Shown: positions 25,869-44,709, counted from the stretch's first letter. The stretch: DNA of 51,360 nucleotides from an uncultured Candidatus Saccharibacteria bacterium (GCA_964574355.1 CAZNMD010000005.1:1-51360), one strand, 5' to 3'. The notes: generated by a model from the letters alone, not told the origin. A program made the numbers and translations.

Positions 25869-26044
25869 TTCCGTCCCAACTCGAAGACTCGTTTGTGCCT
25901 AAAGACTTGATCTTTACATGATCAGTACAGGTTTCCCATTTTCTCACCATCAGAATGGTTCAAAAATATGGGAGAACCTTTTCAAGTCCCTTCTCGCGAA
26001 CAAAGTAGTTTGTTCGCTTCCGTCCCAACTCGAAGACTCGTTTG
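25869..26044 (-). other. structured tRNA-Leu(CAA) tail element
   Basis: Inverted copy of the tRNA 3' end (25981-25995), inserted hairpin, core, and a 31-bp direct repeat (25869-25899 and 26018-26048). Confidence 0.75.
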
Positions 26045-26125
26045 TGCCGGAGAAGGGACTTGAACCCTTAAGCCTTGCGGCATGCGATTTTGAGTCGCAC
26101 GTGTATGCCATTCCACCACTCCGGC
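26045..26125 (-). tRNA. tRNA-Leu(CAA)
   Basis: GCCGGAG acceptor, TGCGA-CTCAAAA-TCGCA, long variable arm, GGTTCAAGTCC. Confidence 0.96.
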
Positions 26126-42052: not shown

Positions 42053-42079
42053 AATGCGGTGGTGGCGAAGTTGGTTAAC
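42053..42079 (+). repeat. 27-bp duplicate of the tRNA-Cys 5' end
   Basis: AATGCGGTGGTGGCGAAGTTGGTTAAC is identical at 42053-42079 and 42175-42201. Confidence 0.9.
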
Positions 42080-43976: not shown

Positions 43977-44049
43977 CCGCCCGTAGCTCAGTCGGTAGAG
44001 CAGTCGCCTCTTAAGCGAATGGTCGCAGGTTCGATTCCTGCCGGGCGGA
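43977..44049 (+). tRNA. tRNA-Lys(CTT)
   Basis: CCGCCCG/CGGGCGG acceptor, TAGCTCAGTCGGTAGAGC D-arm, CTCTTAA anticodon loop, GGTTCGATTCC. Confidence 0.93.
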
Positions 44050-44347
44050 CAAAAACAAACGAAGTGAGTTTTTTCTCGCCCGGAGTGAGCAAACTGCTTT
44101 GCTCACGTCAGGAATCGAAGAGGTCGAACATATCGTAGTGAGCTTCCGAGCGAAACGAGATGTGAGGCCTGTACCGTCCCCGTAGGGGAAGATTATCCTG
44201 CTGTACAGAAATCGAAGCCGTTCTCCGTTATTTGTGAGGTATTCTGATGCCAAACAAATCGGAAACGGATACTGCTCCTGTAAGGAGGGATACTCCTGCC
44301 GGTTCATGCAGAAATCGAAGAGGTCAAACATATCGTAGTGAGCTTCC
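44050..44347 (+). other. structured tRNA-Lys tail element (about 2.4 tandem modules)
   Basis: Antisense copy of the tRNA 3' end split by a hairpin; CAGRAATCGAAG units at 44109, 44206 and 44309. Confidence 0.8.
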
Positions 44348-44369
44348 AACGGCTTCACGGCCTCCGTCT

Positions 44370-44628
44370 TTCAAGTCCTCTCCCGCGCATAAAACAATAG
44401 TCGCCCAATGCTTTCGCATTGGGCTCCTTTGTTTTTGGTGCGCGGGAGAGGAATCTTTCCCGCGACTCAAAATTTGCCGTCGCAAATTTTGGTCTGGGCA
44501 CCGCCTCGCTCCCATTCGAAACGAATGGATCCTGCTCCGGCGTTCAAGTCCTCACGAAAGCTCCCCCGGAGCTTTCTTCTCGCACTACCCAAGCAAAAAT
44601 CGCCTTTCGGCGATTTTGTGCTTTTGGG
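44370..44628 (-). other. structured tRNA-Leu(TAG) tail element
   Basis: Two inverted copies (44370-44389, 44542-44585) and one direct copy (44436-44452) of the tRNA 3' end, separated by hairpins. Confidence 0.8.
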
Positions 44629-44709
44629 TGCGCGGGAGAGGACTTGAACCTCCATGCCTTGCGGCACTTGCTCCTAAGGCAAGCGTGTCTGCCATTTCAC
44701 CACCCGCGC
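44629..44709 (-). tRNA. tRNA-Leu(TAG)
   Basis: GCGCGGG acceptor, CTTGC-CTTAGGA-GCAAG, long variable arm, GGTTCAAGTCC. Confidence 0.95.

What the first reader, a model, noticed from the sequence alone, without database searches (positions are those of the whole stretch)
44050..44347. tRNA-Lys tail: tandem ~100-nt modules in A-B-A' order
Seen: CGCCCGG (44077-44083), an inserted hairpin and CAGGAATCGAA (44109-44119) together form the antisense of the tRNA end TTCGATTCCTGCCGGGCG. Units start at 44109, 44206 and 44309. The two full units read CAGRAATCGAAG - long bulged stem - RTACYG - 5-bp hairpin with GTA loop (TCCCC/GGGGA, CTCCT/AGGAG) - GAT..TCCTGC (sense T-arm). Unit 3 repeats unit 1 at 37/39 nt and is truncated where the convergent Leu-TAG tail ends. 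Unit 2 resembles the Leu-CAA core. This suggests iterative module acquisition at the T-arm sequence.
Basis: partly seen in the sequence, partly recalled or inferred. Interest (0 to 1): 0.78.

Follow-up and report, generated by a model that had tools for sequence, protein, structure and literature searches.

The report
Structured repeat modules behind tRNA genes
The stretch after this tRNA-Lys gene is a stack of three small, folded, non-coding modules of a kind that sits behind many tRNA genes in this group of tiny bacteria, each module framed by backward and forward copies of the tRNA's own tail end, much like the long-unexplained "tRNA-linked repeats" of E. coli.

Summary
Behind tRNA-Lys(CTT) lie an antisense copy of the tRNA's 3' half, split by a hairpin, and three units in A-B-A' order.

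This is a genome-wide system, not a local oddity.
- In this 778-kb genome, 18 of 45 tRNA genes carry an antisense copy of their own 3' half downstream, and none upstream. It is followed by one to three roughly 100-nt modules and usually a sense copy of the tRNA 3' end.
- Modules A and B share one covariation-supported fold: 94% of cells paired against 67% in shuffles, and 24 of 25 pairs with double changes.
- A model of B finds matches in 88 of 151 genomes of the same order (Patescibacteria/Parcubacteria by record titles), with 1-29 copies each. The matches lie behind tRNAs of many identities, with arms matching the local tRNA.
- A same-genus genome has none: 0 of 33 tRNAs examined.
- At the orthologous Ile and Lys(TTT) genes, the distal sense copy sits where the original tRNA end was.

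No Rfam family matches. No dedicated recombinase was found. No RNA data were available.

The closest known thing is the E. coli tRNA-linked repeats (RtT), which show the same sense/antisense logic but no sequence likeness. How the modules copy themselves, and whether they act as RNA, remains open.

The parts
43977..44050 (+). tRNA-Lys(CTT) gene. Its 3' half (T-loop, T-stem 3' strand, acceptor 3' strand) is the sequence copied in the tail.
   Evidence: ARAGORN; Rfam tRNA 70.9 bits.
44051..44076 (+). A/T-rich spacer at the centre of the palindrome formed by the tRNA 3' end and its antisense copy. It has a weak AAAAAC/GTTTTT stem and is not scored as a terminator.
   Evidence: Inverted repeat I8. 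No terminator-like site between the tRNA and 44403.
44077..44083 (+). Antisense copy of the acceptor 3' strand (CGCCCGG).
   Evidence: Sequence; inverted repeat I8.
44084..44108 (+). Hairpin insert (9-bp stem, CTGC loop) between the anti-acceptor and anti-T segments. The same kind of hairpin recurs in other tails and other genomes.
   Evidence: Genome-specific consensus in G038.
44109..44119 (+). Antisense copy of the T-stem 3' strand plus the T-loop (CAGGAATCGAA). This is the left boundary of unit 1.
   Evidence: Inverted repeat I7; pattern count.
44111..44194 (+). Unit 1, a module of type A. It has a long hairpin with a tandem G.A internal loop, then GTACCG, then a 5-bp hairpin with a GTA loop (44177-44189).
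   Evidence: Model R1 match at 42.4 bits. Type A alignment: 13 of 20 pairs with compensatory changes.
44191..44201 (+). Partial sense copy of the T-loop 3' part plus the T-stem 3' strand (GATTATCCTGC), closing unit 1.
   Evidence: Sequence.
44206..44216 (+). Antisense T-arm copy of unit 2 (CAGAAATCGAA), with one change from the tRNA.
44208..44292 (+). Unit 2, a module of type B. It has a long bulged hairpin, then ATACTG, then a 5-bp hairpin with a GTA loop (44275-44287).
   Evidence: Model R1 match at 96.5 bits. Structure counts on 49 distinct copies.
44289..44302 (+). Sense copy of the tRNA 3' part (GATACTCCTGCCGG), cut short here. At the tRNA-Lys(TTT) locus, whose tail is identical up to this point, the copy runs on through the acceptor strand.
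   Evidence: 100% identity over 250 nt with G000:C15:8950-9199.
44309..44347 (+). Unit 3 (A'): an antisense T-arm copy plus the first 28 nt of a type A module. It matches unit 1 at 37 of 39 positions and is truncated at 44347.
   Evidence: Repeat family D1. Junction covered without differences by a run contig spanning 44273-44417.
44348..44626 (-). Tail of the convergent tRNA-Leu(TAG), read on the minus strand in this order: terminator-like hairpin; degenerate anti-acceptor, hairpin and anti-T (44542-44553); a type C module; sense copy of the Leu 3' end (44437-44452); bidirectional terminator (44403-44424); 20-nt antisense copy (44370-44389); and the truncated start of a second type C module, which abuts unit 3.
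44627..44709 (-). tRNA-Leu(TAG) gene.
25871..26043 (-). Tail of tRNA-Leu(CAA), in the same window. It holds a hairpin, a 15-nt antisense T-arm/acceptor copy and a type B module (25905-25989). It is flanked by a perfect 31-nt direct repeat made of the last 5 nt of the tRNA plus 26 nt of trailer.

Best explanation
The tail of tRNA-Lys(CTT) is a tandem stack of three tRNA-linked repeat units. These are short, non-coding, strongly folded modules that get copied into the 3' flank of tRNA genes.

Each copying event leaves the tRNA's 3' half (about positions 54-74) in three copies:
- a sense copy, the working tRNA end;
- an antisense copy, often split by a small hairpin;
- after the module, a second sense copy, the displaced original end, which then decays.

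Further units are added at the same joint, giving runs such as A-B-A'.

The element-specific parts are the module core and the hairpin insert. The arms are written from the local tRNA. I infer that the universal T-loop sequence flanks the core on both sides, antisense on the left and sense on the right, and serves as the joint for copying between different tRNA genes. This could happen by template switching or short-homology conversion during replication, or by a recombinase acting on the folded top strand.

The elements behave as fast-turnover, largely selfish DNA. The tRNA-sense strand is the one that folds. In this locus it is probably also transcribed as a 3' trailer.

Shown: the anatomy, the conserved fold, the tRNA linkage, the distribution and the empty sites.
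Inferred: the copying mechanism, the order of arrival of the units, and transcription.
For: Genome-wide pattern in G000:
- 18 of 45 tRNAs have an antisense copy of at least 10 nt of their own 3' half within 500 nt downstream, against 0 of 45 upstream.
- Layouts were read.
- Module signatures occur only in tRNA tails and always in the tRNA's orientation.

Conserved fold:
- On 49 distinct copies, 94.1% of cells are paired against 66.7% in shuffles (0 of 500 shuffles reach it).
- 24 of 25 pairs have changes on both sides.
- Slid controls give 30-59% paired.
- Type A: 13 of 20 pairs compensatory.
- Type C: 13 of 18 pairs compensatory.

Distribution:
- 88 of 151 genomes of the order have matches, 1-29 per genome.
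- 22 of 29 fetched loci have a same-strand tRNA ending 28-366 nt upstream, covering many identities, with arms matching that tRNA.
- 17 of 20 stretches from G038 and G113 show the same, with up to 3 units in tandem.

Turnover:
- The same-genus genome G001 has 0 model matches.
- 0 of 33 G001 tRNAs examined carry downstream copies of their 3' half; two sense matches there were to 5' parts of the tRNA, positions 8-25 and 17-26.
- At Ile-GAT, the G001 tRNA end aligns with the distal sense copy of G000, which has about 181 nt extra. Lys-TTT is similar.
- In the sister genus, G006 and G010 carry different B variants at tRNA-Lys(CTT).

Core copied, arms local:
- B cores behind Leu-CAA, Glu-CTC, Val-TAC and Ala-GGC in G000 differ at only 2-3 of about 62 positions.
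- Their arms and hairpin inserts differ.

Strand:
- Non-Watson-Crick cells in the helices are mostly G.A or A.G (35) rather than pyrimidine-pyrimidine (6).
- G.U cells number 28 against 19 A.C.

Precedent: the E. coli tRNA-linked repeats show the same logic.
Against: - No enzyme that could move the modules was found.
  - G000 has one tyrosine recombinase and no Y1 transposase, TnpB, IS110 transposase or serine recombinase.
  - A tyrosine recombinase is found in 147 of 151 genomes, and most of the rows listed show a single match, whether or not they carry modules.
- No excision junction or copy-number polymorphism was seen in the four public runs laid, which are only low-depth contigs.
- A template-switch cascade is a rare kind of event, yet some genomes hold up to 29 copies.
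- The hairpin insert lies between two target-derived segments. That is awkward for any simple cut-and-paste or fold-back model.
- Strong sequence conservation in the stems, tandem G.A motifs and top-strand bias would equally fit a functional RNA.
- The claim that the newest unit lies next to the tRNA is not consistently supported. Arm decay and model scores of proximal versus distal units are mixed (partial output).
Confidence: 0.6

Rival explanations
1. Functional small RNAs of the tRNA-linked-repeat type.

Under this reading the units are transcribed with the tRNA, or by read-through of a first terminator. In each unit the antisense arm pairs with the distal sense copy to form an acceptor/T-stem-like minihelix. 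The tRNA end-processing enzymes (RNase P, RNase Z or RNase E, and the CCA-adding enzyme) then cut out a stable RNA of about 100-170 nt whose folded core does something, such as binding a protein.

This does not exclude a duplicative origin.
For: - The fold is supported by covariation, the stem sequences are strongly conserved, and the non-canonical pairs are top-strand specific.
- In this locus no terminator-like site lies between tRNA-Lys and 44403, so units 1-3 would be part of the tRNA-Lys transcript.
- Many other tails have the layout tRNA - terminator hairpin - unit - sense copy - second terminator. This is the layout of the E. coli rrA/rrB/rrF small RNAs.
- Those E. coli RNAs are made by read-through. 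Their authors suggest that the repeated 3'-end sequence marks their 3' processing site (PMC8144298, passages read).
Against: - Turnover is high. There are none in a same-genus genome, and different B variants sit at the same tRNA within one genus.
- The distal sense copies and anti-acceptor segments decay. Examples are Arg-TCT and Ser-GCT in G000 and the units of this window.
- In the minimum-energy fold of tRNA-Lys(TTT) plus its tail, the antisense arm pairs with the tRNA's own 3' half and breaks the tRNA fold. Co-transcription therefore looks costly rather than useful.
- Processing would not require the arms to be identical to the neighbouring tRNA.
Confidence: 0.25
2. Scars of integrase-mediated mobile elements.

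Under this reading, phages or islands integrated into the tRNA 3' ends, bringing a replacement 3' end. They were later deleted, leaving attL/attR remnants that only look like modules.
For: - Direct repeats of the tRNA 3' end flank the inserted block.
- The distal copy marks the original tRNA end. This is what integration at a tRNA attB gives.
Against: - The blocks are only 100-250 nt long.
- They belong to a few conserved, covarying structural families found across more than a hundred taxonomic families of the order.
- They always include an antisense copy of the target, which att scars do not.
- Near-identical cores sit behind different tRNAs with different arms.
- Most of the genomes listed show only one tyrosine recombinase.
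Confidence: 0.05
3. Single-stranded-DNA hairpin elements that exploit the housekeeping Xer-type recombinase, in the manner of CTX phage or other Xer-exploiting elements.

Under this reading the sense arm, spacer and antisense arm fold into a mimic of the double-stranded T-arm/acceptor region. One strand exchange in the T-loop then integrates the circle.
For: - The predicted integration product has exactly the observed order: sense arm, spacer, antisense arm, module, small hairpin carrying positions 52-56, then the original 3' end (my reading).
- The fold is strand-specific.
- The only recombinase present is the near-universal tyrosine recombinase.
Against: - An element coming from tRNA X would give tRNA Y a foreign 3' half, so the arms would have to be rewritten by a further step.
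- No likeness between the T-arm and a dif site was tested or shown.
- No circular or excised forms were seen.
Confidence: 0.1

Closest known systems
E. coli tRNA-linked repeats (TLRs; RtT RNA, Rfam RF00391; rrA/rrB/rrF)
   Same: - They are repeats lying directly downstream of tRNA (or rRNA) genes.
- There are 1-5 per locus.
- The 3'-terminal 18-19 bp of each is identical to the 3' end of the upstream gene.
- Most have no known function (PMC8144298, passages read).
- In the tyrV locus I found that each 178-nt repeat also carries a 10-nt antisense copy of the T-stem/acceptor junction ahead of the 19-nt sense copy. This is the same sense-antisense-sense logic.
   Different: - There is no sequence or structural-model likeness.
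  - RF00391 scores 133-137 bits on the E. coli repeats but gives no match on the tails here.
  - My module B model scores 7 bits on the E. coli locus.
- Here the antisense arm covers the whole acceptor plus T-arm (up to about 21 nt) and is often split by a conserved hairpin.
- The cores form several covarying families.
- About 40% of the tRNA genes of a genome can be affected.
- The host is a Patescibacteria order.
- The E. coli family also includes 5S-linked members. I did not look for rRNA-linked units here.
Miniature inverted-repeat elements (MITEs) and REP/REPIN-type palindromic repeats
   Same: - They are short, non-coding, multi-copy, hairpin-forming and intergenic.
- They break assemblies: many G038 copies lie at contig ends.
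- Their presence varies between close relatives.
   Different: - The 'terminal inverted repeats' here are copies of the local target, not of the element.
- Insertion is confined to tRNA 3' ends.
- No parent insertion sequence, Y1/RAYT-type transposase or other transposase was found.
- A 2024 review of prokaryotic MITEs (PMC10969869) does not contain the word tRNA (term search only).
Integrative elements that target tRNA 3' ends (attB in the T-arm/acceptor region)
   Same: The inserted block is flanked by direct repeats of the tRNA 3' end, and the proximal copy completes the working tRNA.
   Different: - There is no cargo and no integrase of its own.
- The block includes an antisense copy of the target.
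- The conserved core is folded.
Folded single-strand recombination sites (integron attC, CTX phage attP)
   Same: - Structure is conserved more than sequence.
- There are bulged hairpins with a strand bias.
- Tandem arrays grow at one site.
   Different: - No integron integrase search was made.
- The conserved GTT/AAC-like bases at the hairpin foot are in the opposite order to attC (my reading of the alignment; the attC consensus is recalled, not from a call).
- No cassettes are involved.

Membership tests
tRNA-linked repeats (TLR) as defined for E. coli | Located immediately downstream of a tRNA or rRNA gene, in the same orientation | tested here: met
   All signature-bearing modules of G000 lie in tRNA tails in the tRNA's orientation. 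22 of 29 loci from other genomes do so, as do 17 of 20 stretches from G038 and G113.
tRNA-linked repeats (TLR) as defined for E. coli | The 3' end of each repeat is identical over about 18-19 bp to the 3' end of the upstream gene | tested here: met
   Sense copies of 10-22 nt occur in G000 and perfect copies of 16-22 nt in other genomes. In this window's Lys tail the copies are partial (11 and 14 nt, with 1-2 changes). The twin Lys(TTT) tail has the fuller copy.
tRNA-linked repeats (TLR) as defined for E. coli | One to several repeats in tandem per locus | tested here: met
   Three units here. Up to 3 type B units in G038.
tRNA-linked repeats (TLR) as defined for E. coli | Homology to RtT RNA (Rfam RF00391) | tested here: not met
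   RF00391 did not appear for this locus at E up to 10, nor for 16 other tails at E up to 1. As a positive control it scores 133-137 bits on the E. coli repeats.
tRNA-linked repeats (TLR) as defined for E. coli | Transcribed with the upstream gene and processed at the repeated 3'-end sequence | not testable with these tools
   No RNA run was listed for this stretch.
MITE (non-autonomous derivative of an insertion sequence) | Element-specific terminal inverted repeats, a fixed target-site duplication, and a related transposase-bearing parent | tested here: not met
   The inverted arms are copies of the local tRNA. No Y1, TnpB-type, IS110 or serine-recombinase genes were found in G000. DDE transposase families were not searched.
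Integrase-borne island at a tRNA attB | An integrase gene next to attL/attR direct repeats | tested here: not met
   G000 has one tyrosine recombinase, on a separate 2.2-kb contig. A tyrosine recombinase is found in 147 of 151 genomes, mostly as a single match in the rows listed, irrespective of module load.
Any Rfam 15 family | A match at or near the gathering score | tested here: not met
   Only tRNA reached its threshold in this locus and in 16 other tails.

The most novel reading that the evidence does not exclude
These modules are a self-retargeting kind of mobile element. Only a folded core, with its small hairpin, is copied from one tRNA gene to another. The universal T-loop sequence on both flanks serves as the joint, and the arms are rewritten from the new target at each move. 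There is no enzyme of the element's own; it would use at most the housekeeping recombinase or the replisome. On this reading the E. coli tRNA-linked repeats, unexplained since 1978, are degenerate products of the same process. In addition, the units may be released as tRNA-like minihelix RNAs by the tRNA-processing enzymes.
Probability: 0.25. Interest if true: 0.85.

Novelty: new variant of a known kind. Interest (0 to 1): 0.72.

Why it matters
Repeats linked to tRNA genes have been known in E. coli for decades. They have no accepted origin and, for most, no function.

Here the same logic appears in a far richer form:
- hundreds of copies across more than half of the sampled genomes of a Patescibacteria order;
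- several covarying structural families;
- clean empty sites in a congener;
- near-identical cores behind different tRNAs.

This makes two questions directly testable by comparative genomics, strain-resolved metagenomics and simple biochemistry: how such repeats arise, and whether they are RNAs, single-stranded-DNA sites or both.

There are also practical consequences:
- The elements break assemblies of these small genomes.
- They place sequences complementary to the tRNA 3' half next to about 40% of the tRNA genes, which may affect tRNA maturation in organisms with minimal RNA-processing machinery.
- They are not in Rfam.

Tried and rejected
Enzymes and partner genes:
- **Reverse transcriptase as mobiliser.** G000 has one 481-aa RT, only weakly like group II or Drt families. 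None of the 150 other genomes of the order has a close relative; the best is 30% identity over the core. G001 lacks it, but so do module-rich genomes. Rejected.
- **Dedicated integrase.** Rejected.
- **Y1 transposase, TnpB-type nuclease, IS110 and serine recombinase.** Not found in G000.
- **RNase R as a correlate.** It has no hit in G001 with my tblastn screen. It is present in 138 of 151 genomes and missing from several module-bearing ones (G006, G042, G076, G154). No link.
- **Differential gene content, G000 versus G001.** 205 of 734 ORFs of at least 90 aa have no hit. Of these, 167 of at least 110 aa were scanned in Pfam. The scan found a cluster of LexA-like protein, Y-family polymerase and RT; a restriction-modification island next to tRNA-Ser; a Pif1 helicase; and a PhoH-PIN protein. 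None was tested further, and none is a convincing partner. The G001 sequence I held (665,802 nt) may be incomplete.

Strand and unit order:
- **Strand choice by G.U versus A.C.** 28 against 19, not decisive.
- **Arm decay, proximal versus distal units.** The script crashed part-way, and the partial output is mixed.

Expression and polymorphism:
- No RNA holder was listed.
- Laying contigs of 4 runs showed no joints and no copy-number variants, at low depth.

Wider scans:
- The pattern scan of genome contigs returned only 13 loci. I used it for organism names only.

Papers:
- Searches found nothing.
- One search listed MITE papers. I ran a term search on one.
- led to the E. coli TLR paper.
- I found no paper that describes these elements in Patescibacteria with those searches. 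Subscription journals and supplements were not covered.

Full report
**The observation.**
- The window holds tRNA-Lys(CTT) at 43977-44050 on the plus strand and tRNA-Leu(TAG) at 44627-44709 on the minus strand. The 576 nt between them have no ORF of note.
- Reading the sequence confirms every item of the finding:
  - CGCCCGG at 44077-44083;
  - a 25-nt hairpin at 44084-44108;
  - CAGGAATCGAA at 44109-44119.
- Together these form the reverse complement of the tRNA end (inverted repeats I7 and I8).
- The 12-mer CAGRAATCGAAG occurs three times in the window, at 44109, 44206 and 44309. The chance expectation is 0.02.
- Unit 3 matches unit 1 at 37 of 39 positions. It ends at 44347, where the reverse complement of the Leu(TAG) tail begins.
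- An Rfam scan of the locus at E up to 10 finds only the two tRNAs above their thresholds.

**It is a genome-wide system.** The window is contig C5 of a 778-kb, 26-contig genome with 45 tRNA genes.
- For 18 of the 45 tRNAs, an exact antisense copy of at least 10 nt of their own 3' half lies within 500 nt downstream, mostly at +30 to +85. No tRNA has such a copy upstream.
- Most of the 18 also have a sense copy of the last 10-22 nt further downstream.
- Read out, the common layout is:
  - the tRNA;
  - an A/T-flanked hairpin that is the centre of a palindrome;
  - the anti-acceptor segment;
  - a small hairpin;
  - the anti-T-stem and anti-T-loop, ending in TCGAA or TTGAA;
  - one to three modules of about 100 nt;
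  - a 5-bp hairpin with a GTA loop, whose 3' strand already mimics positions 52-56 of the tRNA;
  - a sense copy of the tRNA from the T-loop to the discriminator.
- tRNA-Lys(TTT) on contig C15 has a tail identical over 250 nt to units 1 and 2 of the window. That tail ends in the fuller sense copy.
- By eye and by signature there are module types A, B and C. Their signatures occur nowhere else in the genome and always in the tRNA's orientation.
- Sixteen other tails give no Rfam match either.

**The modules are folded and related.**
- Thirteen type B copies from seven genomes give a consensus of a long bulged hairpin plus the GTA hairpin. 16 of 25 pairs show compensatory change.
- A covariance model built from them recovered 52 copies in the DNA I held, 49 of them distinct. 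On those copies:
  - 94.1% of cells form standard pairs, against 66.7% in shuffles (0 of 500 shuffles as high);
  - 24 of 25 pairs have changes on both sides;
  - sliding the partners by 1-3 columns drops pairing to 30-59%.
- This alignment was fitted to the model, which favours the structure, but the margin is large.
- The same model hits unit 1 (42.4 bits) and other type A copies.
- A separate type A alignment shows the same architecture with 13 of 20 compensatory pairs.
- Type C modules, which fill the Leu(TAG) tail, also covary, with 13 of 18 compensatory pairs.
- Non-canonical cells in the helices are mainly G.A or A.G (35) and rarely pyrimidine-pyrimidine (6). G.U cells outnumber A.C by 28 to 19. 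The strand that folds is therefore the tRNA-sense strand, whether as RNA or as single-stranded DNA.

**Distribution.**
- The B model matches 88 of 151 genomes sampled from the same order, with 1 to 29 matches per genome.
- In a sample of the class it matched 4 of 151: G000, two same-order genomes and one genome of another order. In that other-order genome the match lies in a tRNA-Val tail with the same hairpin insert.
- Record titles of exact-pattern matches name Patescibacteria, Parcubacteria, Paceibacterota, Taylorbacteria and Nomurabacteria.
- Of 29 loci fetched from other genomes, 22 have a same-strand tRNA ending 28-366 nt upstream. The identities include Glu, Gln, Pro, Gly, Cys, Ser, Arg, Trp, Thr, Lys and Val. 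In each case the arms match that tRNA.
- Of the other 7 loci:
  - two show an uncalled tRNA-like 3' end;
  - one lies behind a type C unit;
  - three look orphaned;
  - one is at a contig edge.
- In G038 and G113, 17 of 20 stretches show B units directly behind tRNAs, up to three in tandem. One stretch has a head-on meeting of two tails like the one in this window.
- Anti-T 13-mers of first units match the local tRNA with 0-1 mismatch, in the part that ran.

**Gain, loss and boundaries.**
- The same-genus genome G001 (100% complete by the tool's figure) has no model match.
- None of the 33 G001 tRNAs I could examine has an antisense or sense copy of its 3' half downstream; two sense matches there were to 5' parts of the tRNA.
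- At tRNA-Ile(GAT), the G001 tRNA end and its downstream flank align with the distal sense copy and flank of G000. G000 therefore carries about 181 extra nucleotides.
- At tRNA-Lys(TTT), the downstream gene starts 15 nt after the tRNA in G001 and 16 nt after the distal copy in G000.
- The distal copy is thus where the original 3' end was, and it often decays.
- In the sister genus, G006 and G010 both have a B unit at tRNA-Lys(CTT), but of clearly different sequence. Turnover is therefore fast.

**What moves and what is local.**
- Within G000 the B cores behind Leu-CAA, Glu-CTC, Val-TAC and Ala-GGC differ at 2-3 of about 62 positions and share the variable hairpin tip. Their arms, the 3' strand of the GTA hairpin, and the hairpin inserts are different.
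- In G038, conservation is limited to the core and to a genome-specific version of the hairpin insert.
- The core is therefore copied between tRNA genes while the arms are written from the target.
- The core is flanked on the left by the antisense T-loop and on the right by the sense T-loop, a sequence nearly universal among tRNAs.
- From this I infer that the T-loop is the joint. The event could be template switching or short-homology conversion, or recombination on the folded strand. The sense-antisense-sense topology fits such events. This is inference only.
- Isoacceptors with identical 3' halves share tails: the two Lys genes; Leu-TAG, whose second unit matches the Leu-GAG tail; and Ala-CGC with Ala-GGC.

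**Enzymes.**
- G000 has one tyrosine recombinase.
- It has no Y1 transposase, TnpB-type nuclease, IS110 transposase or serine recombinase.
- A tyrosine recombinase is found in 147 of 151 genomes of the order, mostly as a single match in the rows listed, with or without modules.
- The single reverse transcriptase of G000 has no close relative in the other 150 genomes.
- RNase R shows no link.
- A screen of G000 genes without a hit in G001 gave no convincing partner.

**RNA or DNA.**
- No RNA run was listed, and the DNA contigs laid showed no polymorphism.
- No terminator-like site lies between tRNA-Lys and 44403. Units 1-3 would therefore be part of the tRNA-Lys transcript.
- In the minimum-energy fold of tRNA-Lys(TTT) plus its tail, the antisense arm pairs with the tRNA's own 3' half. 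That looks costly unless cleavage is fast.
- Many other tails have a terminator-like hairpin between the tRNA and the antisense arm.

**Closest known.**
- A phrase search led to a paper on the E. coli tRNA-linked repeats, of which I read passages. It reports:
  - 22 repeats at 10 loci, with 1-5 per locus;
  - the last 18-19 bp of each identical to the 3' end of the upstream tRNA or rRNA gene;
  - no known function, except for three 5S-linked small RNAs made by read-through between two terminators;
  - the authors' suggestion that, for RrB, the repeated 3'-end sequence marks the 3' processing site.
- I looked at the tyrV locus of E. coli K-12. Each 178-nt repeat holds a 10-nt antisense copy of the T-stem/acceptor junction as well as the 19-nt sense copy.
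- Rfam RtT scores 133-137 bits there and does not appear on the tails here. My model scores 7 bits on the E. coli repeats.
- The elements here therefore meet the definition of tRNA-linked repeats but are not homologous to RtT by these tests. They differ in the long split antisense arm, the covarying core families, the load per genome and the host group.
- I found no description of them in the searches.

**Verdict.** The locus is one instance of an apparently undescribed, order-wide family of tRNA-linked, structured repeat elements. The copying mechanism and any RNA role remain open.

Noticed in passing
window 25871-25901 and 26020-26050: In the tRNA-Leu(CAA) tail the direct repeat that flanks the type B unit is a perfect 31 nt: the last 5 nt of the tRNA plus 26 nt of trailer. 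The duplicated block can therefore extend beyond the tRNA end.
   Followed up: partly
window about 42056-42079: A 24-nt sense copy of the 5' end of tRNA-Cys(GCA) lies about 100 nt upstream of that gene.
   Followed up: no
G000:C2:28177-31839 (outside the window): A cluster of a LexA/S24-like protein, a Y-family (ImpB/MucB-type) polymerase and a 481-aa reverse transcriptase. It has no hit in the same-genus genome, and the RT has no close relative in 150 genomes of the order.
   Followed up: partly
G000:C2:41724-46002 (outside the window): A restriction-modification island lies directly next to the tailed tRNA-Ser(GCT). It holds a D12-class methyltransferase, a GmrSD-type nuclease, a DpnII-type endonuclease and an N6/N4 methyltransferase.
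   Followed up: no
L167 (G271:C26:236-3312), a genome of another order of the class: tRNA-Val(TAC) is followed by repeated partial tRNA copies (D-loop through 3' end) interleaved with a tail that has the same hairpin insert and a miniature B-like module.
   Followed up: partly
G038 stretches L175, L180, L183, L185, L187, L190: Many module copies sit at contig ends, so these repeats break short-read assemblies of these genomes.
   Followed up: no
L048 and L064: A type B unit follows a clear tRNA-like T-arm/acceptor 3' end, but ARAGORN calls no tRNA upstream. These may be unusual or interrupted tRNA genes.
   Followed up: no
L194 (E. coli K-12 NC_000913.3:1285900-1287500): Each RtT-type repeat behind tyrV contains an antisense 10-mer of the tRNA-Tyr T-stem/acceptor junction about 95 nt ahead of the known 19-nt sense copy. 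The passages I read did not mention this.
   Followed up: partly
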